Below are positions 19,585 through 41,560 of a stretch of 64,000 bases of DNA, piece by piece. Origin of the DNA: Iphione sp. A-MEVVRFRX5 (taxonomy: Eukaryota). A model generated the notes under the pieces. The model saw nothing but the letters and a program-made list of their open reading frames with translations. It had not been told where the DNA came from and ran no database searches. Position 1 is the stretch's first letter, and each line of letters opens with the position of its first letter. The stretch spans positions 60,202,001 through 60,266,000 of the forward strand of contig OZ320317.1 in assembly GCA_976226885.1 (NCBI GenBank). Direction: 5' to 3'. The position numbers were made by a program, and so were the translations under genes.

Positions 19585-19681
19585 AGTAGTAGTAAATAGT
19601 AAGCAGAGAATAGTGTGTTGACTATGCTAATAAGATCAAACATTTTCCCCCCCACCCTAAGCCCCTCCCAGTGGGATCTGT
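19585..19681 (+). repeat. Left terminal inverted repeat (97 bp)
   Basis: Exact reverse complement of 41867-41960 except for one extra terminal AGT unit. Confidence 0.95.
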
Positions 19682-19952
19682 TTATTCGGGAACTGGGCTA
19701 GCCACGACAAGTGTATGCATAGTGTACATAAGTGCTTACCACCATCAGAAAGGTTTGGACGAGAGCTTTCCAAACCAGATGTGAACCGGTGAAGGTTGTT
19801 AACGTAAATGACAGAATGGGGGCTATGACTTGAGTTCACTGGGTGGTGGAATAGTCCATGTGAAGGTGGGGAAGGTAGCGGAACAGACATGTGAATATGG
19901 GAAGGAAGGCTAGCGTGACAGAGCTCCCTTTCTTATGACTCGGAGGATTGTG

Positions 19953-20050
19953 TCCCCACATTCAATCCCCACCTCAAGCTTGAGGTGGGAATTGAATGTG
20001 GGGAAGTGTTTTATCTTTGGTTTTGATTTCAGGAACCCCTAGGGGTTCCT
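19953..20050. repeat. Two subterminal palindromes (52 bp and 20 bp)
   Basis: 19953-20004 is TCCCCACATTCAATCCCCACCTCAAG|CTTGAGGTGGGAATTGAATGTGGGGA (26-bp arms, 1 mismatch, no loop). 20031-20050 is AGGAACCCCT|AGGGGTTCCT (perfect). Confidence 0.9.
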
Positions 20051-20379
20051 TCCAAAAATTGTGATTTGCTTTCCAGTTGTAGTTTCTCCTTATCCTTATT
20101 GAATGTGTGGGTATCGGTTTCACGTCGTTGTCACTAATTTTTTTGTAGCACGCAGGAGGTGTTTTGAAGGGCGAATGCGATGAATTTAACTTACAGTAGT
20201 GCTAGAGAGGTTTAAAATTCCATTCTACCTACCTAAACTTTGTAGAAGTGTTTGTCCTTTAGTTTTCTTGCTTGTAAGATCTTTTAGATATACTTAAAGG
20301 TGTATATATGAGCTTCAGTCTCGCTGACTCTTCCGAAACTGTCCTGCAGCGCCAAAACCTGCTGTAGTAAGTTTGGGAA

Positions 20380-20580
20380 CTAGGAATTTCCCGAGAGAGG
20401 TCGCCTCTGTGCTAGATTGTTTGGCGAAGTAAGCGGTGGTGGTGGTGGCGGCGGCGGCAGGGCTCCGCTAAAGTGTAAGTGACCCCCAACCTTCTCCAAA
20501 GACGACTGGATAAGATATGATGGGTTGAAGGGAAGGACCCATAAGATAAGTACGAATATAAACAACACCCAATTCCACAT
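20380..20580 (-). CDS. Possible small secreted or membrane peptide with a poly-Pro tract
   Basis: 66-aa ATG ORF with a hydrophobic N-terminus (MWNWVLFIFVLILWVLP) and eight prolines, divergent from polB. No recognisable homology. Confidence 0.35.
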   Translation of the reverse strand: MWNWVLFIFVLILWVLPFNPSYLIQSSLEKVGGHLHFSGALPPPPPPPPLTSPNNLAQRRPLSGNS

Positions 20581-20637
20581 ACAAGTAGATGAAATGTTTC
20601 TTAACCCATAACGTGATCTGACTAATTTTTTGGTGAT

Positions 20638-20796
20638 TATTCAGTATACAGAGTAAATATCTGATCCTGCGTGAAAGGACTTCGAGAATGTTTTCTTAAC
20701 CTACAATACGATCTATATTCAGTATACAGAGTAAATATCTGATCCTGCGTGAAAGGACTTCGAGAATGTTTTCTTAACCTACAATACGATCTATAT
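20638..20796. repeat. Perfect 78-bp tandem duplication upstream of polB
   Basis: The unit TCAGTATACAGAGTAAATATCTGATCC...CGATCTATAT starts at 20641 and again at 20719. Confidence 0.92.
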
Positions 20797-20907
20797 AACA
20801 TGATTCAACAGTTATTCAATCCTTTCATTTAGCATTAGTATAGTACTGCTTTCACTTTGAGAGGGATCTTTCAAGACTTCATTTCAATCAATAGAACTTA
20901 AAAGAAG

Positions 20908-23900
20908 ATGGAAAGTAGTTTGAGTGGATGCGCATGGAGTGATATTGCTCTGGAGAATTATGTTGAATCCTGTTACGACGCTGACAGATTGCGCTCGTGG
21001 GCAAGATCTGAAGGATTATTGGATCACCCAATTGTTATATCTAGACTTCAGGAACTGGACAATAATGTGGTAAGTAATAGTCAATTAAGATTTTTAATAA
21101 TAATAATAATAATAATAATGATGTTCATAATAATTTCTTTTTTCAATTGTAGATCTCTCAACCTAGTGATCAATTTTGTTTCTCAATGGAGGAGTGGAAG
21201 GAATTACTGTCTAGCTTTGACGATATGGAGGAACTGAATGACTTTATAGTTAGCAACAATCTCCATATAGATGGAGAGGTCCAGAAACGGAGACAAGAAC
21301 TGAAGGAGGTAAGTATTGATTTAGATAAAGTTAAAAGTTCTTTCGCTCTATATATTTGCTTTAGTCTATTGTTGATTCATTTCTCTTCTTTTTTCTTTTT
21401 ATAGCAAAGCCAAGATCGCAACGGAGAGACAAGGCATGAGAGAAATAAGCCTGAAGAATTTACATGTAGAAGCTGTCACTCACATTTTAGTTCAAGACGT
21501 GAGCTTTATTTACATCAGGGACTTCAACATGGAGGAGGAGGGTCTAATGAATTTCAAGACGTTCCATGGCAAACCAAAGCTCCTTGGGTGAATGATAATG
21601 GTGATATTGATGATGACTTGAAGCGAACCTATGATGCTAATCGAAAACATATTTTAAGTTCTCATGAGCATGGTATTATAAATAGCGTGTATAATTTTCC
21701 TACCAATGATTTGGAGAACGGGGTGGGTGAATTAATGCAACATTTTGATGAAGTATACGTACAACAAACAGAAACATTTAAAATGGATATCGCCTTTGGA
21801 ATGATTTTACAGCATGCTGAAACGGAACAGTATCGTTATTTTATCCCATACCATAATATAACTTTATTTGGAGCTCCTGTTAGCTTATCTTCAATTAGAG
21901 ATTTGGATTTGATAAGACAGAGGATTAGAAATTTGGATTTGGAACTCTATTTTAAGCAACAGAGACCGGACACTAAGTGGAAGCTTGTTTTAGTAACCAA
22001 CATTGTCTATTATGTTACTAAAACAGGGCATTTGTTGGGGAAGGGTGTTCTACCAGACTATGTTAAACGTAAGCATTGTATTGAAGGGCTTGAACATCCT
22101 CCAAATAATAGGAAGCATTATTATAATGATTCTCTTTGCATATTTCTCTGCCTAGCTCTCCACAGAGGACAGAATCATAATATTGCAAGTTCTGTAAGGG
22201 TATATTATGATCAATGGCGAACATTTTTGGGTGGTTCTATTCCTCGCAATGCTAAACTTTATAAAGGTATCCAGTATGAAGAACTAACAGATTTTGAGCG
22301 CTGTTTCAATGTCTCTCTCTATATCTATGAATTACAACCCGATGATGTTGCTGTTTTACGCTATAAACCTTCAACCAGATTTAAATCTATTATGTACCTT
22401 AATCAGTATGCCTCTCATTTATCTTTTATAATAAACTTTAATGTATATGCTTCAAAATTTCAGTGTGAATCATGCAAGAAGCATTTCAGTCGTCATTTTA
22501 ATTTTAAACGTCATATAGTTTCCTGCGAACATAGGACCAAATATAATTTTCCAGGAGGCTTTTTCACACCTCCTCAAACAGTATTTGAAGAGTTGGAACA
22601 ATTTGGTATAAATGTTAGTGCTGAAGACAGGTTCTTTCCATGGTTCGCAGTTTTTGATTTTGAAGCGATTTTAGAAAGGATCGAGGAGCAAAGTTCCCAA
22701 AAATTATGTTGGAGTCAAAAACATCAGCCTGTATCAGTATCATTATGCAGCAATGTTGATGGTTTTGAAGCAGCTCATTGCATTATAAATTCAGATTTAG
22801 ATGAGATCTTGCAACAAATGTTCAATTATCTTGAAGATATACAAAGAACTGTTCACCATTTAGCCAAAATGAAATGGGGTAGATATTTAGACGAGCTGCT
22901 TTCAATGATGAAAGCTTGGGCTCCTGATCAAGGAGAGGAGGAGGAGGAGGAGGAGGAGGAGGAGACAGAAGAGGAGGAGGAGGAGGAGGAGGAGGAGGAG
23001 GAGGGCTTAACTCATGAGGGTAATTTGTTCATGTTCCGTCAACTAAAGATGTTGAAGCAAAAATTCATTAACTATATGGAACAGTTACCAGTAATTGGTT
23101 TTAACTCATCGAATTATGATATTAACTTGATTAAGTCTAAGTTATTTGGATATTTTGAGTTTGAGCAAGAAGGTAACCATGGATATGTAATAAAGAAAAA
23201 TAATTCATATTTAAACATATCTAATGATAAGTTCAGATTCCTTGATATATCTCAATTTTTAGCACCTGGCTGCTCGTATGCAAAATTTTTGAAGGCGTAC
23301 GAAGTAGAAGAGACCAAAGGCTTTTTTCCATATGAATACTTTGATTCATTTGATCGACTAGCTGAAACTTCTTTACCACCTCATGATGCTTTTTATTCAA
23401 ATTTAAAGGGTTGTAATATTTCTGTTGAAGAGTATTCATGCCTTCAAAAGGTTTGGCGAGAGGAGAATATGCAAACATTTAAAGATTTTCTAGTCTGGTA
23501 CAACAACAAAGATGTACTACCATTTATAACTGCTTTACACAAACTTCAAAATTTTTATTTTGAAAGAGAGTTGGATGTATTTAAAATAGCGATATCTGTT
23601 CCAGGAATAGCAAGGCGACTCTTATTTCAATGCTGTAAAGATTCAAAGGCATATTTCCAAATTTTTGGTTCTGAAGATGAAGATTTATACAGAACTTTTA
23701 AAAAGAATATTGTAGGGGGTCCTTCTGTCATTTTCAAGAGATATCACAAAAGAAATGAAACATTAATACGGGGAAGAAAAATATGCAAAAAGATTCTCGG
23801 ATTTGATGCAAATGCATTATATCTCTGGGCGATAGGTCAGGACATGCCTACAGGGATTTATGTCAGACGATTGGAAACAACAAGCTTTTGTCCAGAAAGA

Positions 23901-26517
23901 CAGACACGTTACATCAAAATGTTTCAGTGGTTGGACTGGAGAGCTAGCTATGATGGAGTGACTATTGCTCATAAACTCAATAGAGGATATGAGAAAAGGA
24001 TTGGGCCATATTGTGTGGATGGATTTTGTTCTGAAACAAATACTGTATATGAGGTGAATATGATACACAGGTCTTACATATATTATTTTTTCTGAATATT
24101 TTAGTTAGTAATGAAATGATTGTTAAAACTACATAAATTCATATATTTCTTTATTCAGTTTCAGGGTTGCTATTTTCATGGTTGTGAGAAATGTCAAAAA
24201 GACAGAATGACTGAAGTGGAACGTCTTAAACGCTTCGAACGCACTAAACAGAGGAGTGCTTATATCACTGCATTGGGTTATAACTTAGTTGAGATCTGGG
24301 AGTGTGATTTTGATCTGTTATGCCTTTCTGAACCTGCGCTGAGAGCTGTGGATGTCTTACCACCCTTTTCGAGGATTCACTCTGGAGAATTAACGAAGGA
24401 GGATATCATTCAGGCTGTAATCAGCAGAGAATTATTTGGTGTTGTGGAAGTAGATATTCAGGTTCCTGAGCAATGGCCAGTGGGATTTGAAAGAACCTGT
24501 GGTCCTAAAGAATATTTTGAGGAAATGTCTCCTCTGTTTTGTACATCAGAGATTCCCTTTGAGAAGATGGGAGAACATATGCAGACTCATGTGAGAGAAC
24601 ATGATCTATCCCAGGTATGAATATTACATAGTTATATAATTAATCTTGAAGAAATTATATGCTGGCTGAAAGCTTTCAATATGTGGTTCTTTTTTCAGAA
24701 ACCTAGGAAACTTTTGCTCAATGGAATGAAAGCTGAGAAAATTCTGTTAGCCACTCCTTTATTGCAATGGTATTTACAACACGGTATGGAGGTAACTCGC
24801 GTCTACCAGCTGATTGAATTTTCCAGGAAGAAATGTTTTGCTTCATTCAAGGATGAAGTTACAGATGCTAGAAGAATGGGGGATATAGATTCCTCCAAAG
24901 CCATTATAGCGGATACTATGAAGCTAATCGGTATGTGTGGGAAAGGTTTTAGAGTTCAGTTAGAGAGTTATATTTAATATAGATATAGAAGTTTAGAGAT
25001 ATTTGGTTTTGACAGTATTTCTTTTTTTATCAAATTACTGAAGAGCACTCATTCCTTATTTCAGGAAATAGCGCCTATGGTTCACTTATAATGGACAAAG
25101 AAAAACATCAGAATGTTAGCTATATTACTGGAAAGAGGAAGGCTTGTTTGGCTGCCAATGAGATATATTATCGTAAAATGAGTGAACTGGATGGTGATCT
25201 ATTTGAGGTGGAATCCGTCAAAAGGAAGATAATTTTAAATCTTCCTATTTACCTGGGCTACTTTATTCTTCAATATGCCAAGCTGCATATGTTGAGATGG
25301 TATTATGATTGTTTGGATGTTCTGGTGGATCGCTCAGACTTCGAATATATTGAAATGGATACAGGTATGTAGCATAGATCTAATAAAACCATAGCTGAGG
25401 AAGATATATTTTGTTGTATTTACATCTTTATTACTTTATTCTTTCAGATTCTGCATATTTTGCTATTTCCGGGGATAATTTTGAATCTGTGATAAAAGAA
25501 GACAAGAGGGAGCACTATTTCAGTGAGGTGAATGGTTCGTGCTCTTCATCATTATCATCTCTGCTAGAGGCTGGTAGATGGTTTCCACGTGATTGTTGCA
25601 ATGAACATCGTATCTATGATAAGAGAACTCCTGGACTCTTCAAATTAGAAGCCTCAGGTAGCGAAATGATTGCTTTGTGTAGTAAAACTTACATTCTTAA
25701 AACAAATGATGATTACAAACTGAGTTGTAAAGGTATTAACAAGAACAGCTTAGAAGATCCAATGGAAAAGTTCTGCTCTGTACTGAAAACAGGTCAGTCA
25801 GCATCTAGCCTTAATAGAGGGTTTCGTGCAAGAGGTAATACCATATTTACATATCAGCAGAGTAGAGCTGGATTATCTTACTTTTATTGTAAGAGGGAAG
25901 TGTTAGCTGATGGGATTTCCACAAAACCGTTAGATGTAGTATTAAGCCCTTGGCATATTCCACAGTATTTTATTTTCAAGGGAAAAGCAAATCCATTATC
26001 ACCTGATTTTCCATCGAGAATGTATATCTTCAATCAGGTCTTTGATAGTGCACGTGATGCTTACAATCATCAGCTGAAAATAATGAATCATGTAACAGGG
26101 GCTTTTATAAATGAAAAGAGACTGAAACTAACAGAAGTGTGGTTGGAAAAGCGTATTTCCTTAATGAGGGAAATTATTCTGGAAAAAATGAGGATCAGTG
26201 AAGAGGTTCGGCGATCATTAAGGAGAAGCGAGGACTTGGTTCTAGTATATTCTGTTTCAGATAACTATTGGGGAGCAGGCATGAATCAGCGGTTAGTTTC
26301 ACTATCGACCAGCTTTCGCGGGAGTAATATGTTGGGAAAATTGTGGGAAGAAGTACGAGAATTGCATGTAGAGGAAATACACAAGTCCTATCTGTTACGC
26401 TGTTACCACTGTAATTCTAAGAAACCTGATGTTAGGTTCCGAAGGGAATCTGAGAAAGATTTATGTGAGCAGTGCAATAAAAAAAATGAAATGTACCTCT
26501 TTTTGATTTTCTTCTAA
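20908..26517 (+). CDS. polB: Protein-primed family B DNA polymerase, 7 exons, ~1674 aa, with C-terminal NADAR-like domain and C4 zinc ribbon
   Basis: Exons 20908-21069, 21153-21308, 21405-24053, 24159-24614, 24699-24930, 25065-25364, 25448-26517 total 5025 nt; all junctions are GT-AG and in phase. Motifs: ExoI VFDFEA, ExoII GFNSSNYD, ExoIII YNNKDV, PolA FDANALY, PolB KLIG|NSAYG, PolC EMDT|DS. Two zinc fingers and a YE|FQGCYFHGC nuclease-like insert are also present. Confidence 0.93.
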
Positions 26518-26572
26518 TGTATAAATTGCTCAGCCGAAGGATTTCTTTTCAGTTTGAAATATATTTTGAAAG

Positions 26573-27197
26573 ATGTATGAACTTCCTGAGTATGTATTTC
26601 AATGTCCTACAACAATCACTATTAGTGGTTCAACAGGATCTGGTAAAACTTCATGGGTAAAAAAGCTATTATGTAATCCTAGTCTGTTTAGCTTACCACC
26701 CAGTAGAATAATATACTGCTATGGAACCTGGCAGGATGCTTTTGATGATATGAAGAATGTTGAATTTCGAGAGGGGTTGGATATTCCTATGGACACAAAT
26801 GGAGAACATATTGTTCTCATTTTGGATGATCTGATGAATGAAGTTATCAAGTCTCCATCAGCTGAATTGTTGTTTACTAGAGGATCTCATCATAAGAATA
26901 TAACTGTAATTTTTATCGTTCAAAACTTATTTCAGCAGGGAAAGTCTGCACGGAGTATAATGCTTAATACACATTACATGGTTCTCATGCAGAACCCACG
27001 TGATATTCAACAAATCAGAGTGCTTGCCAGACAGTTGGGGATGGAAAACTGTCTCGATCTTTCTTATAAGTTCTTATATGTTAGTGCCCTATGGTTATTT
27101 ATTGGTTGATCTTTCACCGCATAACATCAGAGATTTGAAACTCAAAACTGCAATATTTCCTGGAGAGACTACCATTGTCTATCTACCCAAGTACTGA
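26573..27197 (+). CDS. A32/FtsK-like packaging ATPase with an apparent +1 frameshift near 27086
   Basis: Walker A GSTGSGKT, Walker B LILDDL, GSHHKN, VQNLF..G..ARSI.LN. The conserved C-terminus PYGYLLVDL...IFPGE is in the next frame. Confidence 0.88.
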
Positions 27198-27199
27198 GA

Positions 27200-27622
27200 A
27201 TGAGATTTCCGAAATTCGTAGATGAAGATGTACGTCAGCAGACCTTTGCAGGCTGGAAGCATAGCTTGGACTCAAAGCAAATGGTTGATTGTGGATTCTT
27301 CTATTTAGGAGGACTTGATTCAGTGCAATGCTTTCACTGCGGTGTGCAACTACATTCATGGGATGAAAAAGACAATCCTCTCATAGAACATTTGAAATTT
27401 GCTCCTCACTGTGAATATATATGCAAGAAAGCTCATGTAATTTCATCACTATCAATGGAAATTATGCTAGAAGTCTTGCAACAATCTAAGAAATTACAAC
27501 TGAGAATAGCTGAATTAGAGCAAAAAGTTCATATGAACAATACAGCTGTAGATGAAGTGGATAATACTTTCAGTCTTTTTTCCAACAATAAGAGTAATGT
27601 AGCCAGAGCTGCTGTGCTTTGA
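27200..27622 (+). CDS. Single-BIR inhibitor-of-apoptosis-like protein with a C-terminal coiled coil
   Basis: R..TF..W, GFFY.G..DSVQCFHC...L.SW...DNP..EH.KF.P.C, giving the C-x2-C-x16-H-x6-C zinc ligands. No RING domain. Confidence 0.9.
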   Translation: MRFPKFVDEDVRQQTFAGWKHSLDSKQMVDCGFFYLGGLDSVQCFHCGVQLHSWDEKDNPLIEHLKFAPHCEYICKKAHVISSLSMEIMLEVLQQSKKLQLRIAELEQKVHMNNTAVDEVDNTFSLFSNNKSNVARAAVL

Positions 27623-27721
27623 GGTTAGTTCAACATTATCCTAAGTTGGTTATGAATACCTCAGCAGTCGAAATAGCTGAGCATTTACACTTTAGATACC
27701 GATAGAGATGGAGCTAAGTTT

Positions 27722-28048
27722 GTGGAAAAAATGTCACAGAAACTTAGATCTTCAGCAGACTTTTTCCGGTTATTAATGAATACTGAAAAGGAACAAGCAC
27801 TACAGCTATTGAATTCTATTACTGCTCTACAGACGCTTGCTCTGAGTGAAATAGCTTTGAACCTTACTATTTTACCTCTTTCTCAGAAAACCAAGAAACT
27901 TTTAACTCGATACAAGAGGTTGGTTTCTCTTCTGAGTAAGAAGACTAAATCCATCACAGCTAAAAGAAGTGCTATAAAGAAAAACCGTCGTACTATTCTC
28001 AATATTTTACAAAGTATTAAGCCTGAATTATTGGAATTGGTAAAATGA
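27722..28048 (+). CDS. Basic helical protein resembling a small gene commonly found in Maverick core blocks
   Basis: 108 aa, Lys/Leu-rich (LSEIALN, KKLL..YK.LV.LL.KK). Its stop overlaps the next start (ATGA). Confidence 0.7.
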   Translation: MEKMSQKLRSSADFFRLLMNTEKEQALQLLNSITALQTLALSEIALNLTILPLSQKTKKLLTRYKRLVSLLSKKTKSITAKRSAIKKNRRTILNILQSIKPELLELVK

Positions 28049-28512
28049 AAAAGATGGTACTAATTCCATTTGATCAGTTCTCTCGAAATAAGTTAAATTC
28101 ATCTCAAGAACCAACTGTTTCAATTAACAAGCTCGACACTGATCTAGTGTTACTTCCTTTTGGAAAACAACAAAGGAAAGCAGCTGAGGCTCTTTTAGGA
28201 TATGTGGAAAGGAACATGGACTGGAATAGGAATGGTGAAATCATCATTGATGGTGTGGTTGTTACTGGTAGCCATATCACAGATCTGTTGAAGGATGCCC
28301 TATTCAACTATAGGAACTTTGAACCTGTGGGCTATAAGGAATTTTATCAACATCTTCGTGAAATCCCACTTACATTGATCAGGAATCCCAAACGTCGAGT
28401 TCTGATAGGACGTGGACAATTACCACCGCCTGGAATACCAGTTGAGCAAACTCCTATTGACATCACAAAAGACAACAAAAAAGACTGGAAAACTAACTGG
28501 AAAACATTATGA
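28045..28512 (+). CDS. Maverick hypothetical protein upstream of the integrase
   Basis: 155 aa with W...GE..IDG..V.GSHI.DL and P.G..EF...L..IP..LI.N, recalled as typical of the Maverick gene preceding the integrase. Confidence 0.75.
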   Translation: MKKMVLIPFDQFSRNKLNSSQEPTVSINKLDTDLVLLPFGKQQRKAAEALLGYVERNMDWNRNGEIIIDGVVVTGSHITDLLKDALFNYRNFEPVGYKEFYQHLREIPLTLIRNPKRRVLIGRGQLPPPGIPVEQTPIDITKDNKKDWKTNWKTL

Positions 28513-29606
28513 GTAAAGAGTTAAGTAATATATATTTTGATCCCTCACGATCATCTTCATTCGGTGGGATTAATAAACTATATCAGGAGGCCAAGACTCT
28601 GGGATATAAGAAGAAGGATGTAGAGAACTGGCTTCAACAACAAGATGTCTACACCTTACATAGACGACTTAATCGGAACGTTAAAAGACCGAGGGTAGTA
28701 GTATCCTCAAAAGATCAACAGTGGGATGCGGATACTATGAACATGGTCTCTTTTGCTGAAGAAAATGATGGTTATAGTTATGTTCTAGTATTAATTGATA
28801 TATTTACTCGCTTTGTTTGGACTGTTCCTCTAAAAAAGCTGACAGGTAAAGAAATGGTCGATGCTTTAAAGCAGGTTTTTCCTCAGCACAAACCTAAAAA
28901 ATTAAGAACGGATTCAGGCTCCGAATTTGTTAATAAGGTTGTGAAAAAATATTTGCAGGAAGAAAATGTGTATCATTTTACTACAACTAATCTTGTGAAA
29001 GCTAATTACGCTGAAAGGGTAATTAAGTCTTTGAAAACAAAATTGGTTCGATATATGCATCAGACTCAATCCCATCATTGGCTTGATGTTTTAGCTAAAA
29101 TAACTGATGCATATAACATCACAAAACATAGCTCAATTAAAATGACACCTACACAGGCTAGATCTGTGAATCCTATTATCCTCTGGAAAAATCAATTTAA
29201 AGAGAAAAACCCTAGGATAAGGAAATCTAAACCTAAATCAAAACCAAAACCTGTGTATAAATTTAATATTGATGACCGTGTTCGTCTTGCACGCTATAGA
29301 ACCCCCTTTGAACGAGCTTATGATGAGAAATGGACACATGAAATATTTACTGTTACTAATAGAGCATTACAGCAAGGGATTTCACAATATACTATAAAAT
29401 CCTGGGATAATGAACCTGTGATAGGAAAGTTTTATGAAGAAGAGCTAGAGAAGGTTATTGTTAATGAGGATACTGAGTTTAAAATAGAACGTATTGTAAA
29501 GAAAAAGAAGATGAATGGACAAAATGGTTACGTTGTAAAGTGGTATGGTTGGCCGGAGAAGTATAATTCCTGGGTTCCTATTAGTGATGTCAAAAAGCTT
29601 AAATAG
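28509..29606 (+). CDS. int: Retroviral-like DDE integrase with C-terminal chromodomain
   Basis: QQWDAD (D), LRTDSGSEF (D), NYAERVIK (E). The C-terminal FKIERIVKKKK...YVVKWYGWPEKYNSWVP is a chromodomain. Confidence 0.95.
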   Translation: MSKELSNIYFDPSRSSSFGGINKLYQEAKTLGYKKKDVENWLQQQDVYTLHRRLNRNVKRPRVVVSSKDQQWDADTMNMVSFAEENDGYSYVLVLIDIFTRFVWTVPLKKLTGKEMVDALKQVFPQHKPKKLRTDSGSEFVNKVVKKYLQEENVYHFTTTNLVKANYAERVIKSLKTKLVRYMHQTQSHHWLDVLAKITDAYNITKHSSIKMTPTQARSVNPIILWKNQFKEKNPRIRKSKPKSKPKPVYKFNIDDRVRLARYRTPFERAYDEKWTHEIFTVTNRALQQGISQYTIKSWDNEPVIGKFYEEELEKVIVNEDTEFKIERIVKKKKMNGQNGYVVKWYGWPEKYNSWVPISDVKKLK

Positions 29607-29666
29607 TTCAACTCTTCTCATGTTCATCATTCTGTGTTTTGATTTCAAGCTGTAACAACAAGTAGG

Positions 29667-30050
29667 ATGTATCTCTTTATTAAGCAGAATGATTCTGAGC
29701 TGTTCTATCCTAAAAACACCAGTAGTGATTTCATAGTTGAACTACCACATTCATTAAAATTAAAAGGGGATTGGAGCTGTGCTCTTGTAGAATGTAATAT
29801 AGATAATCCTTCTTCTAAGGAATTATATATTTATTCCGATTTAATAGCATCAAGTGTTGTAAAAGGGAAAACAGCTCCCATTCTCAGAGTAACCAGTGAG
29901 AATGGTGAATTTGTGAATCCATATTACATACCAGTGATTAAGGATTATGTCTTTAGGTTCCGTGTTTGGATTAGAACAGTGGATGGAAAGCTATTTGAAC
30001 AAGATCTTGAAAATTGTCGCCTTGTCTTACATCTTAAAAAGGAGAGCTAA
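29667..30050 (+). CDS. Minor capsid protein (penton, single jelly roll), very compact
   Basis: 127 aa with F.VELP..L.L.G.W.CALVE, LYIYSD.I...V.G...PILR and NPYYIPV. Confidence 0.8.
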   Translation: MYLFIKQNDSELFYPKNTSSDFIVELPHSLKLKGDWSCALVECNIDNPSSKELYIYSDLIASSVVKGKTAPILRVTSENGEFVNPYYIPVIKDYVFRFRVWIRTVDGKLFEQDLENCRLVLHLKKES

Positions 30051-30099
30051 CTCCACTTAGAGTCATTTCAAATCAGACAAGCTAAGAGTCACAAGCAGC

Positions 30100-30471
30100 A
30101 TGAGCTTCATTCCCTATGTTCCAGACTTAGAAGCTTGGAAACAAGTTCCTAACCAAAAGGATAGTAAACCTTTCTATGTTCTTCAGAAGGGAAAGGGAAG
30201 TGATATTAAATTGGTTAGTCCTCAAGAGGGAGTCATTGAGAGAGCAAAGTATAAACTAAGTCGTCAGATAAAAACAACACAACCAAGAACACGTACTCAG
30301 TCGAGATCTAGGAAACGAAGGAGAGGGAACAAGAAGAAATCTATATCTGTATCTCATAAGAAGGTAAAGAGAAAGACAAAGACAAAGACAAAGACAAAGA
30401 AAACCAGTCTGAAAAGAAAACCAACCAAAACATCTAAAAGGAAATCTGGTAGTAAGAGAAGAGGACGATGA
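30100..30471 (+). CDS. Highly basic putative DNA-condensing core protein
   Basis: The C-terminal half is very K/R/S/T-rich, including a KTKTKTK repeat. An LQKGKG motif resembles an adenain cleavage site. The gene sits directly before the major capsid gene. Confidence 0.75.
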   Translation: MSFIPYVPDLEAWKQVPNQKDSKPFYVLQKGKGSDIKLVSPQEGVIERAKYKLSRQIKTTQPRTRTQSRSRKRRRGNKKKSISVSHKKVKRKTKTKTKTKKTSLKRKPTKTSKRKSGSKRRGR

Positions 30472-31799
30472 GTTATATACTGAGTAATGCACAAGAGGGT
30501 TTTGATGATCGCTTAGCCCTCTTCAATATTCCACCTGTAGAAACCGCAGTTCAAGAAATATATTATAAGGATTATCGTCCCATTGGTCAGATTGCTTCTG
30601 ATTCTACTTTGGAATTTGATGTGAGCAATAATTCACCTGATTATATTGTTTTGAATGAAATTTCATTGATAACAACGATTCAATTACACACTGACCAAGA
30701 TAAGCCAATCACCACAGCTCATGATGTGACTCTCATTAATTTTGCCGCTGCTACAATGTTCAGACAACAAGATTTTTATATTCAACAACAGCTAGTTACT
30801 AGCACTATAGGTGCTAACTTTCCTTATAAGGTAATGATAGATGGTTTGCTTGGACAAGGTTTAAATGATCAACTTAGTTGGATGTCTGTAGCCGGCTATA
30901 TGAAAGACACCGCCCTGCTTATGGACGATCATGAAGGAAAATCTAGTGGAAATACAGGTTTAACAGACAGATTTGATAAGACTAAAGCAGGAAAAAAGCC
31001 TGTATTCAAAACAAGACTCTTTATGGATATCTGTCAGCAGAAAAAAATGTTGTTAAACGGCTTACCTTTAAGTATTAAACTATATCCGAGCACAGAGAAA
31101 TTTAGACTGCTCTACAAAACTCAACCAACTACTGCACCTGCTACTACACCAAAGTCCTATAAAGTAAAATTACTAGATGCAAAATTACTTGTTCCTTTTG
31201 CCCGAATTCATCCTGGAATGATCATGGCACAGGGTGACATGTTGAAAAAGGAAATGGCATTGTATCCTTTTACTAGAAGCGAGATAAAGTCCTATAATAT
31301 TCCTAAAGGTAGTTTAAACTGGAGTATGGATAATCTTTTTCAAGATATAATTCCCAAGCGTTTGGTTATGGGTTTCGTTTTAGCAAGTGCTTATACTGGT
31401 GAAAACGAAAAAAATCCTTTTAATTTTCAACACTTTGATGTATACTATCTCGACTTCCAAGTTAATGGGCAGAGTAGTGGAGGTCAAATCCTACAACCAG
31501 ACTACAAAAATCATAATTATGTTTCTGCTTTTGTCAGACTATTTGAGAGTATGCCTCCTGATCAGACAGAACCACCAAATATTACCTATTTAGATTTTAG
31601 AGGGGGATATTGTTTATATGTCTTTGATTTAGAAAAGGGAAAGGATTCTACATATTCAATCCCATTACGAAAGGGTCAAACAAGGCTCTCTGTGAAATTT
31701 GCTAAAGCTCTACCCGAACCCGTTTCAATAATTGTGTATGGAAGTTTTGAGGCTCTTATGAAAGTAGATCAAGCAAGAAATGTTATAATCGAGACCTGA
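30468..31799 (+). CDS. Major capsid protein (double jelly roll)
   Basis: 443 aa with L.LF..PPV...V.E, YIVLN...L, P.R...GFV...AY.G....NPFNFQHF, F..GYCLY.FDL and L.VD..RNV. Confidence 0.92.
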   Translation: MSYILSNAQEGFDDRLALFNIPPVETAVQEIYYKDYRPIGQIASDSTLEFDVSNNSPDYIVLNEISLITTIQLHTDQDKPITTAHDVTLINFAAATMFRQQDFYIQQQLVTSTIGANFPYKVMIDGLLGQGLNDQLSWMSVAGYMKDTALLMDDHEGKSSGNTGLTDRFDKTKAGKKPVFKTRLFMDICQQKKMLLNGLPLSIKLYPSTEKFRLLYKTQPTTAPATTPKSYKVKLLDAKLLVPFARIHPGMIMAQGDMLKKEMALYPFTRSEIKSYNIPKGSLNWSMDNLFQDIIPKRLVMGFVLASAYTGENEKNPFNFQHFDVYYLDFQVNGQSSGGQILQPDYKNHNYVSAFVRLFESMPPDQTEPPNITYLDFRGGYCLYVFDLEKGKDSTYSIPLRKGQTRLSVKFAKALPEPVSIIVYGSFEALMKVDQARNVIIET

Positions 31800-32260
31800 T
31801 GCTCATAAAAATGGTTGTACAGGTACAAAACTCACATTCAGCAATGAACAGTGAACAGATAACTAAATATCTTCTATCAGATACCCATACTTCTAAATAT
31901 TTTAAGGGTGTATTAGCCTATGATGAGATGCCTGAAGAAATTACCTATCCATGTTTGTTCGTTGTTAACACAGATCCATCATTCCGACCAGGAAATCATT
32001 GGGTCTGTGTCTTCTGCGCGGATGTTAATGAATACTTTGATTCTTTAGGGTTTCCACCACTAGAGTTAGAACATTTCCTTTCAAAACAAAGAAAAAATTA
32101 TAAATATAATACTAAAATATTACAGGGTAGCAAAAGTGATGTCTGTGGAGATTATTGTGTTCTCTTTGCTTATTTTCGCTGTAGAGGTTATAGCATGGAA
32201 TATTTTTTATCCCTATTTAGCTCGGATTTAGATTACAATGATAAAATAGTTGAATTATGA
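31799..32260 (+). CDS. Adenain-like cysteine maturation protease
   Basis: VVNTDP...PGNHW (His), EYFDSLG (Asp), LQ.....VCG.YC (Gln, Cys). The real start may be MNSEQI at 31844. Confidence 0.92.
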   Translation: MLIKMVVQVQNSHSAMNSEQITKYLLSDTHTSKYFKGVLAYDEMPEEITYPCLFVVNTDPSFRPGNHWVCVFCADVNEYFDSLGFPPLELEHFLSKQRKNYKYNTKILQGSKSDVCGDYCVLFAYFRCRGYSMEYFLSLFSSDLDYNDKIVEL

Positions 32261-32478
32261 TAAACTTAGAATGAATAGTATCATTATACAACATGTATTC
32301 ATTAGAAATAAAAAAGAAATGTATCCAGCAAAATACTTGTTTATTATATATTCTGTTGAAATCTCTTGAATTCTCACAACCTTTATATGAGGCAAAAAAA
32401 AGTAAAAGAAGCTTTTTGAATGAAATACGCAGGTGATATATATATATATACCTGTGCTCAAAGCAACTGAACGATAAA

Positions 32479-33600
32479 TAATCTTGACTCAGCAAGAGGT
32501 AAATATACTATGGTTATCTTAAACACTCTTTGACTTCAACATAGCTTCATCATGGATCTCGCCTTATTTTTTGTTACGTCTGTGTCATACATTTTAAAAT
32601 GGAATCAAACCAACTACACGAGAGATAATCTTAACTCAGCAAAATGCAAACATACTATGGTTAATATTAAACAGTCTTTGACTTCAACATAGCTTCATCA
32701 TATAACTCACAAAAGAAAACTATATGAGTTTATTCCCCACTTACACATCTCTTTTCAAGAGATAAATATTTATGTAATGAACCTGGCTAACTAGCTGGTT
32801 TTTAACAAGAGAACACATTGTATGAGCCCCATACTTCAAGCTCTACTACTCCTTGGAGGATAATCTACAAGTAAATATTAAAAAAGGGAACACACACTTA
32901 GCAATATATCCACGCTTAACTAGCGAGCCCTGAACCCAACTAACTAGCTAGGTTCTAACAAGAGAACATACGATATGACTGTCACGCTTTAAGCTTGTCT
33001 ACTCCTTTGAGTAGTACAGTAAATTCTTTTTTAAAAGTCTAGGACAGTAATAATAATAGCTGTGCCCAGCTAGCTAGTAGATTATAAAAGGTCTACACGA
33101 GTTCCTTGAGTAAATATCTTGAAAAAGAGAAGACACTCGACATTATCATCACGCTTAACTAGTGAGCCCAGAACCCATCTAACTAGATGGATTCTAACAA
33201 GAGAACATACTGTATGACTGTCACGCTTTAAGGTCTACTCCTTTGAGGAGTACCTCTTTTGATATAAAATATATGTGTGAGCACCACGCTTTAAGGTTTA
33301 CTCAGCTGAGACCCAGCTAGCCAGCTAGCAAACTAATTGCTAGATCTATGTATGTATGTATGACTAACATGCTTCAAGGTCTGTTTAGTTGTCCTTGAGC
33401 AATATTTTCTATATAAGAATGAGCACCACGGTTTAAGGTCGACTCCTTTGAGCAATATCTCTTTTGATATAAAATATATGTGTGAGCACCACGCTTTAAG
33501 TTTTACTCAGCTGAGCCCAGCCAGCCAGCCAGCCAGCTAGCTAGTTAGCTAAAACCTTATAAAAAGTCTACAGCAGTTCTTTAAGTAAATATCTTGAACA
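32479..33600. repeat. Non-coding mosaic of nested imperfect direct repeats inside the Maverick
   Basis: Paired blocks: ~32479-32551 with ~32626-32701, ~32911-32992 with ~33149-33232, and ~33255-33310 with ~33458-33513. CACGCTT(T)AAG and (A)GCTAGCT motifs recur. Confidence 0.85.
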
Positions 33601-33648
33601 TGAGAAGATGGATTCTCCTATGCAAACCTGTAAAGGTTTCGAGCTAAA

Positions 33649-33885
33649 TTAAATGTCCTGAGGAGCTCGATTCCGTAAATTATACCTGTGAGTTCTATTA
33701 CGTAAATTATATCCATTTTTGTGAGGAGTATTATCTGCTCCTGATAGGCGTCGTTGCCGTCGTCTTCTAAGTCCTCTCATATGTTCGTTGTCCGCATCAT
33801 TTACAGCAGCTATTACACGGTGATTTTCTACGTCTTGATATCTCATTCGCGCCGCCATCTCCTCCCTCATTCTGACTGAAAACAT
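33649..33885 (-). CDS. Small basic peptide with tandem YNLR.R chromatin-binding-like motifs
   Basis: 78-aa ORF ending RRRRQRR...NGYNLRNRTHRYNLRNRAPQ. A TTTTCAG acceptor at its 5' end suggests an upstream exon, or a start at Met 33870. Confidence 0.65.
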   Translation of the reverse strand: MFSVRMREEMAARMRYQDVENHRVIAAVNDADNEHMRGLRRRRQRRLSGADNTPHKNGYNLRNRTHRYNLRNRAPQDI

Positions 33886-34523
33886 ATATTCAAAGATAAT
33901 AAATTATATGAATCAAGTCAAATTGTTAACAAGCACCAAAAGAATTGAGTACAGGAGATAATATTTATTGTGAGCCAAAAGAATTGGTTACAGGATATAA
34001 TATTTATTGCTAAATCAAATATATTTCATCTTAGGAATTTTTTATTTAAATAAGTTAAACTGATAACAGCTATTGATAAATTTTGGACTAATTTATAGAA
34101 GTTAGATACATAATAAGAAACTGAGAGTTCAAGAAATTCAGATATAAAAAAGATTTAAGTGTATGAAAATTAAGATGGGAAAAAAAAAGAAAATTCGTGC
34201 CTTACACCTATGTCTCGCATTTATGTCAGGAAGCAGATCGATCTCGTCATCTACTCCGTTGTAAACACTACATGAAATATAATTAATCTCTTGTGAATTT
34301 TGTGTGAATTCACACTACATAGAGATCATAGACGGAAGCAAATCGTTTACTCCAAATAAAGTTACTTTAAACAAAGAAACAATACTGATAAGTTATGTAA
34401 CCTTTAAAATGGAAGCAAATCAACTACTTCAGACAGAAGTTATATTAAATGACCCTAGTACACTTTTTTGCTAAGTTAAGTAGATATTTACGTTTATTAT
34501 TAATATTTGGTATTCATCAATCT

Positions 34524-35330
34524 TTATGAAGATACATACTGATTCTGATATGCATGTCCATGTTCGGGCGCTCCATCAAGAGGTAGCTCCATCGCGCCCA
34601 ATCCTTCAATCTGCCCATTCAACGCACCCAGCATCATCGCCTCCTGGATATTTCTTCTATTTTTTTTACAATAGCGATGGACATAAACTAGAGCTGCAAT
34701 AATCATGATGAAAATCACAGCCAGTCCAACATATAACAAAATCCATACTTTGTTTTCAATTGGACCCATTCCATTATCCGCATGCTCTGATGTCGTAGTT
34801 CTTGACTTAGCTGGACTCAATCGAGGGTTAATATCATCTGTATCAAGCTCATCAGTATTACGATGAATACTTTCCACCAAACTGCCCTCGCCGTCTGGAG
34901 CTGGGCCAACAGTGTCATAATATTCAGTGTCATGATCATCATCATCAGTAAAGTCATTCGGAACAAGCTCCCTCTCACTAGAGGAGGAAGAGGACTCGCA
35001 ATCTGATTTGATTGCAAGTTGCTCGTGGCTTTGAATTCTGCTGCAGGGAATATCCGTATTTCGTACATCAATGAGCAGAGTTTGAGGAAATAATTTGTAA
35101 ACCAGTGTCAAGTTCAATGTGTCCAGTTTCGAATAGCGGAAATCCAAATACCTGAATCCGTAAAACTCCTTTCCCGCTACAAGCAGCGAGCGAATCAAGC
35201 TAGTTATAGGAATACTCCGGCAAAGTAGTCGTGAACCCTTGCATCTGCATCTTTCACACAAGTCATTAGACTGAACAGATGAAATTAAAATAACACAAAC
35301 TAAAGAAGAGAAAACGAAAAATTTTGCCAT
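34524..35330 (-). CDS. Type I membrane protein 1: signal peptide, short LRR module, acidic Ser/Thr stalk, TM, Tyr-containing tail
   Basis: LRRNT-like CERCRC.GSRLLC, LRR-like LDFRYSKLDTL and LIDVRNT.IPC, TM VWILLYVGLAVIFIMIIAALVYV followed by a basic stop-transfer segment. Confidence 0.85.
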   Translation of the reverse strand: MAKFFVFSSLVCVILISSVQSNDLCERCRCKGSRLLCRSIPITSLIRSLLVAGKEFYGFRYLDFRYSKLDTLNLTLVYKLFPQTLLIDVRNTDIPCSRIQSHEQLAIKSDCESSSSSSERELVPNDFTDDDDHDTEYYDTVGPAPDGEGSLVESIHRNTDELDTDDINPRLSPAKSRTTTSEHADNGMGPIENKVWILLYVGLAVIFIMIIAALVYVHRYCKKNRRNIQEAMMLGALNGQIEGLGAMELPLDGAPEHGHAYQNQYVSS

Positions 35331-35747
35331 AATGGCTGCGTTGCAAAGTCACTGTAAAGGGATCAGGTTAGTTTCCCATTTTTTTCGCTAGCGAGCTAGC
35401 GAGCGAATATACTGTTTCAGTGGTGATGATCAGTTCTATATTATACATAAATAATGATATGATATGATATGATAAGATAAGTGAGGGGTTAAATAGTAAA
35501 ACAGTGATTTGTTTTCGTATTTGTTATTGATTCAATTCACTAGATGGCGCCCTAGTTCATAAAAAACTGATTTAGTTTTGTATCTCAGTAGATGGCATGC
35601 TAGTACATAAAACGCTGCCCTGAGCTATGTTTTAAAGGACTAGCACTGGCTTATTTAACTTTTTTGAGGACAGAGTCCCTTCCTGTATACGTCTCGTTGT
35701 AAACACTAGTCTCTATAATGACTAGAAAAAAAAAATCATAAGAGAAA

Positions 35748-36404
35748 ATGGTCACTTCTCCCGAAAGAATCAAAACTCCTAATATAATATCATATTATTG
35801 GTTGAGGGAATTTGAAGACGAATCTAAACACGGTGTTCGCTTTCTACATGAATCAGTAGGAGAGAGAAATGAATTTCCACCTAATTCCATAATATTACAA
35901 TATTATCGTTGGTGTTTAAGAGACTATGAAATGAATATTATATATGTTAGTGAGGATGTTTTCCTTTTAAGAGAGTTGTGTGATATCATTGGAAAAAGAG
36001 CTTATAATTCAGCTATGTTCAGGGGCTTCATCTGTGAAAGTGATAAGATATACTTTATTCAACAGAAACCACATATTTATGGAATTATTACTGAAATAGC
36101 TAATCGACCAGATAGGGTGGATGTTATGAAGAAGGTATACACTTATTTGTTGCATCTTGAATTCAGCAAATTAATTAGCTTAGACTTCATCATAGAAAAT
36201 CTATTTGAGGAATATGCAATATACTGTCATCTTCAAATAAACTACAAACGACTGGCGAATGCTAGTTCCTATATGGCTAATTTCTTCCAAGTTGAAAGCT
36301 ATTTCAGTTTTAAAGAAACTACAGATTTCCTCAATAATCAAAATCCTGCGTCCACACTGCGTGACGTAGCATCACAAAAAATTTATGAATTTACATTCAT
36401 CTAA
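35748..36404 (+). CDS. Unknown family, paralogue P1 (218 aa)
   Basis: Shares YYRWCLRD...IYVS.D.FLLR.LC...G.RAYN, MK.VY.Y.L, RLA....Y and Q.P...IYEF with P2 and P3. Confidence 0.85.
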   Translation: MVTSPERIKTPNIISYYWLREFEDESKHGVRFLHESVGERNEFPPNSIILQYYRWCLRDYEMNIIYVSEDVFLLRELCDIIGKRAYNSAMFRGFICESDKIYFIQQKPHIYGIITEIANRPDRVDVMKKVYTYLLHLEFSKLISLDFIIENLFEEYAIYCHLQINYKRLANASSYMANFFQVESYFSFKETTDFLNNQNPASTLRDVASQKIYEFTFI

Positions 36405-36728
36405 ATACAACTCTTTGAGTATGTTATCTTAGGAATGTATTTATGCAATATCATGCAGGCAATGACCTAGCAACGAATAGATTCGTGAGGATGAACACGA
36501 TGAATTACTTGAACCACTAGAACAGTACGATTAACCTGATTTTATAAATTCCATATTGCGCAAATGTTGACGTATCTGAATATATTAGCCTTGTAAATAT
36601 CTAGAACCAATGGTTGAAGCGAACTCATCCTTTTAAATAACTGCTATGGACGTTTTCTCTCTCAGAGGCGCAGCTGACTTCTGAGAGCATTTTCCCGATA
36701 CCTATTTTTTCCCCAAATTTTAAACGAG

Positions 36729-37791: not shown

Positions 37792-38118
37792 CTTTGAGTA
37801 TGATGATGTAATACTTTTTATTATCTATAAAACTTATTACAATGCAACATTAACTAGCTTATAGTTTTGGAATCTAATTCATATCAATTAGCCACTACTA
37901 CAATATATACTTATAATAATGATAGATTTAATTGTAGCATATTATACACTGCTTCAAAGCTCGGTAAAATTGTAGCTGTTCTTTGTTCACTTATTCATAT
38001 AGTTATACTTCTGTTTCAAGCGTATAACATAGACTTATAATGATAAACTTGACTTGTAGTATATACTGATTTAAAGCTCAATAAAAAAAAATTGTTCTTT
38101 CTTCACTTATTCTTGTGG

Positions 38119-39051: not shown

Positions 39052-39323
39052 ATCTAAGTAAAATATTCAGAACAGGAGACACGAAGTGTGCACGACGAGT
39101 CCCGGCAGACAAATAAGAAGGGTCACAAGTCAGGTTCGCGATCAGTCAGCTCACTTAATGAGAGTCATAAATCATTGAGAAAAGGGGGTCAGTAAATAAA
39201 GGGTTAGAAGTCGGGTTTAGACTTGATGCTCTAAGAAACGCGCGGAACAGCGAACAAGATAGGGATAGACCTAAAATATGGATAAATAACTAACACAAAA
39301 TCTTTAATAGAAACTCTTTATTT

Positions 39324-40106: not shown

Positions 40107-40141
40107 ATAGTCAGACAGAGTTATATATTCCTGAAAGATAT

Positions 40142-40792: not shown

Positions 40793-40826
40793 CACACTTT
40801 TATATTTACCAAATGATACATTATAC

Positions 40827-41120: not shown

Positions 41121-41560
41121 GAAAGTGCAGTAACAAATCACTTGGTGGTTGCTATGCAGAGACACTAACCCCATCTGGTGTTTCTCCCTGGTAGTTAGAG
41201 GGATTTCTACCCTTCGTAAACAATAGATGGCGGTAAAAACGATACAGGTAAGAAAATTATACATACTTGCAAAGATATGGAAAATTAATCAATTTCTTTC
41301 ATCTTCAAGATATTAATCTATTCTCATGGGAAAAACTACAGTAGAATTAATACATACCACAATCAAACGGCGATTTCACAGCCCCATTCACTTGAATTGA
41401 GCCTTGTATTCAGGAAACACCATTTCAAGCTATGTCCAGGGTTTATGAGATTTCATCTTCATCACCGATAAAAAATAACTCTTGCCTAAAACATGGCAAA
41501 CAGAGTATACAATAACCGCATCAGGCTGAAAGAGCTCAGCTTGGTCGGATCCTAGCCGTC

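What the first reader, a model, noticed from the sequence alone, without database searches (positions are those of the whole stretch)
25966..26517. NADAR (YbiA-like) domain and C4 zinc ribbon fused to the C-terminus of pPolB
Seen: after the polymerase end (LSTKPL-type motif) the frame continues for about 185 aa: F.G..NPLS.DF....VF.SA..AY ... W...R..LMREII.EK....EEVRRSL......LV....DNYWG.G ... GSNMLGKLWEEVRE, then CYHC...CEQC. Established, recalled from the family: NADAR/YbiA proteins have FSNF...EHY.QA.K, W...K..VM...L.AKF.Q...L...L..T....LVE....D..WG.G and G.N.LG..LM..R. They are N-glycosidases, and some remove ADP-ribose from guanine in DNA. Here the usual acidic positions appear replaced (EH to RD, LVE to LVY). 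Inference: a polymerase-tethered eraser or reader of ADP-ribosylated DNA that counters a host nucleic-acid ADP-ribosylation defence. I do not know of a described pPolB-NADAR fusion.
Basis: partly seen in the sequence, partly recalled or inferred. Interest (0 to 1): 0.88.

Follow-up and report, generated by a model that had tools for sequence, protein, structure and literature searches.

The report
Disarmed ADP-ribose eraser on Maverick polymerase
A virus-like jumping element in an animal genome has a NADAR domain (a fold that cuts ADP-ribose tags off DNA and RNA bases) and a predicted zinc finger in the same reading frame as the end of its DNA polymerase; here the domain's three cutting residues are replaced, so it likely serves as a non-cutting polymerase attachment, while a few relatives keep the residues and would still erase such tags.

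Summary
Observation confirmed. The last open frame (25399-26517) of the polymerase gene of a young Maverick/Polinton (19585-41960) runs from the polymerase C-end into a NADAR domain (Pfam E 4e-12; model matches 8BAU, Z 14.7) and a four-cysteine tail whose model is a treble-clef finger, not a ribbon. The fusion does not depend on splicing: intronless relatives in this genome encode it as one 1594-1693 aa frame, and 41 non-redundant proteins from other assemblies share it. All 61 fused domains in the tree fall on one branch. The eraser reading fails for this copy: E43, K50 and E125 (Phytophthora numbering) read R, L, Y, and a helix is missing. The triad is intact in 0 of 26 host Maverick representatives, 3 of 41 external fusions and 9 of 12 host LINE-ORF1 NADARs. 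The domain is still under purifying selection (dN/dS 0.08-0.24). Best reading: an active eraser was likely captured once, then turned into a non-catalytic polymerase accessory. One relative carries DUF4326, another predicted ADP-ribose-processing domain, in the same slot. No description was found in ten literature searches. Function is untested.

The parts
19585..41960 (+). Maverick/Polinton element, 22.4 kb; AGT...ACT ends, 94-nt terminal inverted repeat (19588-19681 / 41867-41960), 6-bp target duplication GTGGTG
20908..26517 (+). pPolB gene, predicted 7 exons (20908-21069, 21153-21308, 21405-24053, 24159-24614, 24699-24930, 25065-25364, 25448-26517); lengths add up in frame to about 1674 aa; VSR-insert (pPolB2) type
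   Evidence: GT-AG sites read; colinear tblastn with an intronless relative, 41-56% identity; VSR insert E 0.0013 to 1VSR; no RNA evidence
25448..25956 (+). polymerase end of palm, thumb and short linker in the last exon
   Evidence: model residues 69-143 align to phi29 polymerase 488-575, Z 3.9; BFVD hits to bidnavirus-like and adintovirus PolB; 150 genome matches
25957..26385 (+). NADAR-fold domain, predicted catalytically dead: R at 26053 (E43), L at 26074 (K50), Y at 26248 (E125); W89, R93, D130, W133 equivalents kept (26140, 26152, 26260, 26269)
   Evidence: residue roles from PMC11543638, PMC12945103, PMC11257639
26386..26484 (+). CxxC-x17-CxxC tail, predicted treble-clef zinc finger
   Evidence: 13 of 13 intron-bearing family representatives; pLDDT about 95 in the deeper model but under 50 in the first; Z 3-4.6 to treble-clef domains
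26570..27197 (+). A32-like packaging ATPase; in this copy the match is spread over two frames
   Evidence: Pox_A32 E 2e-5; frames
27125..27622 (+). BIR (inhibitor of apoptosis) domain gene
   Evidence: Pfam BIR E 1.3e-18
28497..29606 (+). retroviral-like integrase with chromodomain
   Evidence: rve E 3e-12, Chromo E 6e-9
30456..31799 (+). probable major capsid protein (447 aa)
   Evidence: position and size only (recalled Polinton layout); no Pfam or NCBIfam hit
31751..32260 (+). probable adenain-like maturation protease
   Evidence: Peptidase_C5 E 0.043, below cut-off

Best explanation
The frame encodes a NADAR-fold domain and a four-cysteine tail directly behind the polymerase thumb, and because its three catalytic residues are replaced while the rest is under purifying selection, it is likely a dead hydrolase kept as a non-catalytic, probably DNA-gripping, accessory of the Maverick polymerase. 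Steps: (1) shown: fusion, fold, residue replacements, purifying selection, spread over many families. (2) Inferred: an ancestor of this pPolB2 clade captured once an active NADAR of the kind carried at the end of LINE ORF1 proteins, which would have removed ADP-ribose from template bases at the replication site. (3) Inferred: most lineages lost catalysis stepwise (E125 first, mostly to Y or F, then K50, then E43 and a helix in this window's lineage, which also carries the zinc finger). (4) Inferred: the domain stays attached (linker of about ten residues, no conserved cleavage-like motif) and would use the remaining W/R/D/W phosphate-binding half of the cleft, with the finger, to hold DNA leaving the thumb or the displaced strand.
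For: Triad E43/K50/E125 intact in 0 of 13 intron-bearing and 0 of 13 intronless host representatives, 3 of 41 external fusions, against 9 of 12 host LINE NADARs, 1 of 1 host gene and 61 of 124 other NADARs. Even E-to-D or E-to-Q at the E125 position abolishes activity in a YbiA-type NADAR (PMC12945103); K95 and D171 are essential in E. coli C7 NADAR (PMC11543638); E36A and K43A disable T4 AdfN (PMC11257639). dN/dS of the domain 0.08-0.24 in 9 of 9 intron-family pairs, close to the polymerase end (0.04-0.16 in 8 measurable pairs). All 61 fused domains lie on one branch (SH-aLRT 97) with the triad-intact ones at its edge; in the polymerase tree P0042 (intact) groups with unfused polymerases at 89. 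One external clade has also lost much of D130/W133/G134 yet keeps the domain, so ADP-ribose binding is unlikely to be what all lineages keep. Linker: a GG or GxG pattern in only 3 of 38 scored 20-residue stretches, which run into the domain.
Against: No binding or activity was measured. DNA binding is not supported by charge: median net charge +3 in the window's families and -4 in the intronless ones. The kept W, W, G, N residues may be kept for folding alone. The E125 position is Y in 13 of 13 window-type families and Y or F in 23 of 41 external fusions, which could mean a new chemistry rather than none; phage NADARs are active with His there. Both trees are unrooted quick trees, the outgroup NADARs were found with the fused profile itself, and the branch that separates fused from unfused polymerases has support 0. 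dS is near saturation in many pairs; the one young intronless pair gave 0.44 (polymerase 0.33).
Confidence: 0.52

Rival explanations
1. Specific reader: the dead domain still binds ADP-ribosylated bases or poly(ADP-ribose), steering or shielding the polymerase at host-marked DNA.
For: W89, R93, D130, W133 and a basic residue near R79 are kept in 12-13 of 13 window-type families; these contact the pyrophosphate in 8BAU. A related pPolB carries DUF4326, proposed to act on ADP-ribose phosphates (PMC9503650), in the same C-terminal slot. Host LINEs carry intact NADARs.
Against: K50, D86 and the G78 adenine loop are lost or remodelled; another fused clade has eroded the same pocket further. The DUF4326 case is a single metagenomic protein.
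Confidence: 0.2
2. Purely structural cap: the domain packs on the thumb or palm and stabilises the polymerase; no ligand.
For: Invariant columns are mostly core W, G, N, L, M; short conserved linker; the two-part model has pTM 0.71, compatible with a fixed orientation; heavily eroded versions persist (P0186).
Against: Related polymerases without it exist (P0007-P0014, P0187), so it is not needed for the fold; surface R93 and D130 equivalents are conserved; a zinc finger was added.
Confidence: 0.13
3. Still an active eraser or N-glycosidase with rebuilt chemistry (Tyr and Arg in place of the two glutamates), countering host ADP-ribosylation of element DNA.
For: Y is fixed at the E125 position and R/Q at E43 in 13 of 13 families; NADAR subfamilies vary at E125 (E, D, H); E88A had only a minor in vitro effect.
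Against: No carboxylate is left at either site and the essential lysine is gone; conservative changes already abolish activity in tested NADARs.
Confidence: 0.12
4. Not part of the polymerase: a separate or unexpressed frame behind it.
For: No RNA evidence for this element's splicing was obtained.
Against: No stop between polymerase end and domain; the intron before the last exon splits the polymerase's catalytic DTDS motif, so this exon is needed; 15 intronless host frames of 1594-1693 aa hold both parts; 41 external proteins hold both.
Confidence: 0.03

Closest known systems
YbiA-subfamily NADAR hydrolases: Phytophthora nicotianae NADAR (PDB 8BAU), E. coli YbiA (2B3W), S. coelicolor SCO5665 (PMC11543638, PMC12945103)
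   Same: Fold (Z 14.7 and 12.9), W89, R93, D130, W133, WG and GxN motifs.
   Different: E43, K50, E125 replaced; a helix missing; fused to a DNA polymerase; zinc finger added.
T4 AdfN/gp30.3, phage NADAR counter-defence against DarT1 (PMC11257639)
   Same: A virus-borne NADAR; the model for what the triad-intact fused relatives would do.
   Different: AdfN is a free-standing, active enzyme against a known bacterial toxin; here no host transferase is known and this copy lacks the catalytic residues.
NADARs in retrotransposons: Ectocarpus Gypsy Pol and oyster Tx1 LINE ORF1 (PMC12477816); NADARs in RNA-virus replicase polyproteins (PMC9503650)
   Same: NADAR attached to a mobile element's own replication proteins; ORF1-type NADARs are among the nearest unfused relatives found and are abundant in this host.
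   Different: Those are RNA-intermediate elements, and the host's LINE copies mostly keep the triad; this is a DNA element's protein-primed polymerase.
pPolB2 with VSR insert of marine mollusc and nematode Polintons (bioRxiv 10.1101/2023.08.22.554363); TP-vOTU-EXO-PALM pPolB architecture (PMC11161782)
   Same: Element layout, VSR insert, nearest named unfused relatives from Haliotis, Pecten and Argopecten.
   Different: Neither paper's main text names NADAR (0 occurrences); described extras are HNH, VSR or helicase domains.

Membership tests
NADAR superfamily (fold) | Pfam PF08719 above curated cut-off | tested here: met
   47.1 bits vs 35.1; 16 of 16 further host copies also above it
NADAR superfamily (fold) | YbiA fold | tested here: met
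   Z 14.4-14.7 to 8BAU, 12.6-12.9 to 2B3W; Foldseek E < 1e-3 only for these two
Active YbiA-type NADAR hydrolase | Catalytic Glu in the last strand (E125) | tested here: not met
   Tyr
Active YbiA-type NADAR hydrolase | Conserved Glu (E43) and Lys (K50) of helix 1 | tested here: not met
   Arg and Leu
Active YbiA-type NADAR hydrolase | Pyrophosphate contacts W89, R93, D130, W133 | tested here: met
   all four kept
Active YbiA-type NADAR hydrolase | Hydrolysis of base-linked ADP-ribose | not testable with these tools
   needs an assay
DarG1 (Asp) or phage AdfN (His) NADAR subfamilies | Asp or His at the E125 position | tested here: not met
   Tyr; only Z 5.3-5.6 to DarG1-type 8BAT
Maverick/Polinton | Terminal inverted repeats, AG...CT ends, 6-bp target duplication | tested here: met
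Maverick/Polinton | pPolB, rve integrase, A32-like ATPase | tested here: met
   DNA_pol_B_2 hits weak, in intronless relatives; structural hits to PolBs
Maverick/Polinton | Jelly-roll capsid proteins and adenain protease | tested here: inconclusive
   frames of fitting size and place; protease E 0.043; no profile hit for capsids
pPolB2, VSR subgroup | VSR nuclease insert in the palm | tested here: met
   profile of 10 intronless copies plus two window exon pieces hits E. coli Vsr at E 0.0013
Treble-clef zinc finger | Two CxxC pairs, hairpin plus helix | tested here: inconclusive
   pattern in 13 of 13; many treble-clef rows at Z 3-4.6, none clearly best; GATA E 0.033

The most novel reading that the evidence does not exclude
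Marine invertebrates have an undescribed defence that ADP-ribosylates the bases of mobile-element DNA and RNA, and their mobile elements counter it by bolting ADP-ribose-handling domains onto their replication proteins: active NADARs on LINE ORF1 and on early-branching Maverick polymerases, DUF4326 on another Maverick polymerase, and a catalytically dead NADAR-zinc-finger reader in this family that lets the polymerase recognise and get past marked templates.
Probability: 0.27. Interest if true: 0.87.

Novelty: new variant of a known kind. Interest (0 to 1): 0.62.

Why it matters
No pPolB-NADAR fusion was found in print, and this is a whole clade, not a one-off. It supplies a natural series from triad-intact to fully disarmed domains on the same polymerase, which makes two things directly testable: what NADARs do in animals' mobile elements, and how an enzyme becomes a polymerase accessory. 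With at least 150 NADAR matches in the same genome, 12 of 13 sampled in LINE-like ORF1 frames, and a second ADP-ribose-linked domain in the same polymerase slot, it points to a possible ADP-ribose conflict between invertebrates and their transposons, for which no host enzyme is known.

Tried and rejected
RNA: no RNA holder listed for 20800-27300; no evidence either way. Complex prediction of polymerase core with NADAR from an intronless copy: no verdict, score 0.20 under the mark of 0.34, alignment not used; not evidence. Single-sequence PDB search found nothing; profiles were needed. ESM Atlas: no usable hit for the tail or the last exon. IMG/VR: 71 loci with NADAR relatives, 0 of 71 with a pPolB C-end in the fetched flanks. 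Host genome searches for Scabin-like and DarT families: none, controls silent too; DUF4326: none, control rang in 1 of 14; intron-split genes could be missed. Host names for the external fusions: 25 fused-clade proteins looked up, none had a taxon, so the host range is not established. The word-seeded homologue searches are incomplete (one search did not return P0002-P0006). The first fold left the tail under pLDDT 50; a deeper alignment resolved it. Rejected: chance frame (profile, fold, selection); 'zinc ribbon' label; need for splicing to make the fusion. Rows dropped: L016 (stop inside the domain) and near-identical copies from the alignments; cluster mates P0015-P0019, P0172, P0173; five domains under 110 aa from the tree; P0184 (two partial NADAR repeats) from the residue count; one dN/dS pair failed and two were saturated; L010 gave no anchor.

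Full report
Setting. The finding lies in a 22.4-kb Maverick/Polinton at 19585-41960: a perfect 94-nt terminal inverted repeat, AGT...ACT ends and a 6-bp target duplication. It encodes an rve integrase with chromodomain, an A32-like ATPase, a BIR protein and a weak adenain-like match. The family is young: 10 of the 11 other near-identical copies could be anchored and differ from the window at 1-5 of 1033 positions in the last exon. The host is an animal with a 1.18-Gb assembly; it was not identified.

Observation. 25966-26517 is the end of an open frame that starts at 25399 and contains the polymerase C-end. Pfam gives NADAR at E 4.1e-12, above its cut-off. Profiles of host copies find YbiA and the Phytophthora NADAR in the PDB (E 8e-6 and 1e-5). 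Two AF2 models (mean pLDDT 79.5 and 85.7) match 8BAU at Z 14.4 and 14.7 and 2B3W at 12.6 and 12.9. In the second model, residues 69-143 align with the last 88 residues of phi29 polymerase (Z 3.9), so the NADAR sits behind the thumb. The tail (CxxC-x17-CxxC) is confident in that model and its matches are treble-clef fingers (ZAD, ClpX zinc domain, CsfB, FYVE, GATA; Z 3-4.6), which corrects the 'zinc ribbon' label without naming a family.

Is it part of the polymerase? Six short GT-AG introns (83-134 nt) give seven exons whose lengths add up in frame to about 1674 aa (sites; the donor at 24054 was read). The last intron splits the catalytic DTDS motif, so the NADAR-bearing exon is needed for a working polymerase. 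This is inference; no RNA run was listed. Independent proof comes from a second group of Mavericks in the same genome that have no introns. Nine of the eleven such loci hold single frames of 1594-1693 aa from zinc fingers to NADAR (the other two hold shorter frames ending in NADAR). Six of six further loci picked by their polymerase end also finish in NADAR.

Spread. The junction query gave 150 scored matches among 2708 candidates in the host. Outside it, 5 of 13 full-length homologues carry the NADAR. In one search, 34 of 159 proteins with a NADAR hit also held a pPolB C-end directly upstream. One search added 10 more, giving 41 non-redundant external fusions. None carries a taxon name; the nearest named polymerases, from Haliotis, Pecten and Argopecten, lack the domain. 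The polymerase has a VSR insert (E 0.0013 to E. coli Vsr), the mark of the pPolB2 subgroup of marine mollusc and nematode Polintons (10.1101/2023.08.22.554363, passages). The zinc finger is restricted: 13 of 13 intron-bearing host families, 5 of 41 external fusions by a strict pattern (P0032 has a cysteine-rich tail that the pattern missed), none of the intronless host copies.

Active site. In 8BAU, E43 and E125 hold the distal ribose; K50, R79, W89, R93, D130 and W133 hold the pyrophosphate (PMC11543638, passages). The E125 equivalent and the lysine are essential in E. coli C7 NADAR, while E88A had a minor effect in vitro (same paper). E167D and E167Q abolish SCO5665 activity (PMC12945103, passages). 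E36A and K43A disable AdfN (PMC11257639, passages). The window has R, L and Y at E43, K50 and E125, lacks about 11-13 residues of the helix before the G78-R79 loop, and keeps W89, R93, D130, W133. The triad is intact in 0 of 13 intron-bearing and 0 of 13 intronless host representatives, 3 of 41 external fusions (P0042, P0044, and P0078, whose E125 call depends on the alignment), 9 of 12 host LINE NADARs, 1 of 1 host gene and 61 of 124 other NADARs. The intronless group keeps E43 in 11 of 13; one external clade has Q or H at E125 and has also lost much of D130/W133/G134.

Selection. Nei-Gojobori dN/dS between families is 0.08-0.24 for the NADAR (9 of 9 intron-family pairs), 0.04-0.16 for the polymerase end (8 measurable) and 0.07-0.57 for the tail. 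Many dS values are near saturation. The one young intronless pair gave 0.44 against 0.33; two pairs were saturated and one failed. The domain is therefore maintained, a little less strictly than the polymerase.

History. In a 180-row quick tree, all 61 fused domains share one branch (SH-aLRT 97) with six other rows of 142-218 aa. Four of these look like fragments of fusions; two (P0082, P0060) are triad-intact proteins without polymerase. The intact forms lie at the edge of the branch. In a tree of polymerase ends, fused versus unfused needs one change, and intact P0042 groups with the unfused set at 89, though the separating branch itself has no support. This fits one capture of an active enzyme and later decay. 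The trees are unrooted and the comparison set was retrieved with the fused profile, so direction and donor are inferred. Many of the nearest unfused NADARs end proteins that look like LINE ORF1s (coiled coil, knuckle, GDSL esterase; the ORF1 label for these external proteins is my reading). In the host, the family search gave 150 scored matches among 4416 candidates. Twelve of 13 loci taken from that list have the NADAR at the end of a 530-710 aa frame upstream of an RT-motif frame, confirmed as reverse transcriptase by Pfam in 6 of 6 tested; the 13th is a canonical host gene. NADARs in oyster Tx1 ORF1 and Ectocarpus Gypsy Pol are in print (PMC12477816, passages).

A second domain in the same slot. 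P0185, a related pPolB from a metagenome, ends in DUF4326 (E 1.9e-19), which PMC9503650 proposes acts on phosphates of ADP-ribose derivatives and finds fused to NADAR, Macro and SLOG domains (passages). P0184 ends in two partial NADAR repeats and P0186 in what looks like a heavily eroded one. These are single cases, but they suggest that the polymerase C-end of this clade has repeatedly taken ADP-ribose-related domains. Earlier AI notes of this scan report NADARs, some remodelled, on giant-virus capping enzymes and RPB7 and on jumbo-phage polymerase subunits; I did not test them and count them as leads only.

Mechanism. Shown: fusion, fold, residue loss, constraint, spread. Inferred: loss of hydrolase activity in this copy (about 0.85 likely), single capture of an active eraser, and present use as a tethered non-catalytic accessory. 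I put 0.52 on a DNA-gripping accessory, 0.20 on an ADP-ribose reader, 0.13 on a structural cap, 0.12 on rebuilt catalysis and 0.03 on a separate frame. Against my choice: the domain is not strongly basic (median net charge +3), and nothing was measured.

Literature. Ten searches. NADAR plus Polinton gave two papers, seen only as listing and abstract start, neither on this topic as far as shown. None of the 40 listed Maverick/pPolB papers contains NADAR (129 matched) or YbiA (239 matched). [quoted passage not shown] Read as passages: PMC9503650, PMC11543638, PMC12945103, PMC12477816, PMC11161782, PMC8502044, PMC9303266, PMC11257639, 10.1101/2023.08.22.554363; parts 1-2 of 6 of PMC11125620. No supplements or figures were seen; the extended alignments of the pPolB2 paper, Repbase entries and subscription papers could hold the domain unnamed or named.

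Verdict. A real, apparently undescribed domain architecture across a clade of Maverick polymerases; in this window a likely pseudo-enzyme rather than an eraser. New variant of a known kind, interest 0.62.

Noticed in passing
L051-L061, L063 (e.g. G000:C26:42843000-42850500): Abundant host LINE-like elements with three frames: a 530-710 aa ORF1 ending in a mostly triad-intact NADAR, a 220-260 aa middle frame with no Pfam hit, and an endonuclease-reverse transcriptase frame.
   Followed up: partly
P0185 (JGI metagenome protein): pPolB ending in DUF4326 at the place where this element has NADAR.
   Followed up: partly
P0184, P0186: pPolBs ending in two partial NADAR repeats (P0184) or a strongly eroded NADAR-like tail (P0186).
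   Followed up: partly
window 20908-26517 versus L031-L035, L046-L049, L065-L070: Two Maverick groups coexist in the genome: one with six short predicted introns in pPolB, one intronless; intron gain in a Maverick polymerase.
   Followed up: partly
window 26570-27197: The packaging ATPase match is spread over two reading frames in this copy.
   Followed up: no
window 26476-26517: Near-identical copies differ in an A-run after the last cysteine (7 with 8 A, 4 with 9 A, of 11 measured), giving two C-terminal lengths.
   Followed up: partly
window 27125-27622: BIR-domain (IAP-like) gene inside the element; IAP homologues are mentioned for adintoviruses (PMC8502044).
   Followed up: no
window 34524-35348 (-) and 38119-39066 (-): Two predicted single-pass membrane proteins with signal peptide, a small Cys/leucine-rich-repeat-like N-terminal part and Ser/Thr- or acid-rich stalk; possible receptor mimics.
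   Followed up: no
window 35742-36404 (+), 39324-40151 (-), 40142-40846 (-): Three frames that look like paralogues of one unknown family (shared 'YxW.L.D', 'R.LC..MG.RA.N', 'RLA.A..Y' patterns); no meaningful Pfam hit.
   Followed up: no
window 20638-20793 and 32458-33608: A perfect 78-nt tandem duplication upstream of pPolB and a region of degenerate 60-240 nt repeats in the middle of the element.
   Followed up: no
window 14449-16305 (-) and 8073-9335 (+): Host genes outside the element: a long single-frame sulfatase and a polycystin-channel exon.
   Followed up: no
L062 (G000:C22:27636416-27636865): A canonical host NADAR gene with all catalytic residues.
   Followed up: partly
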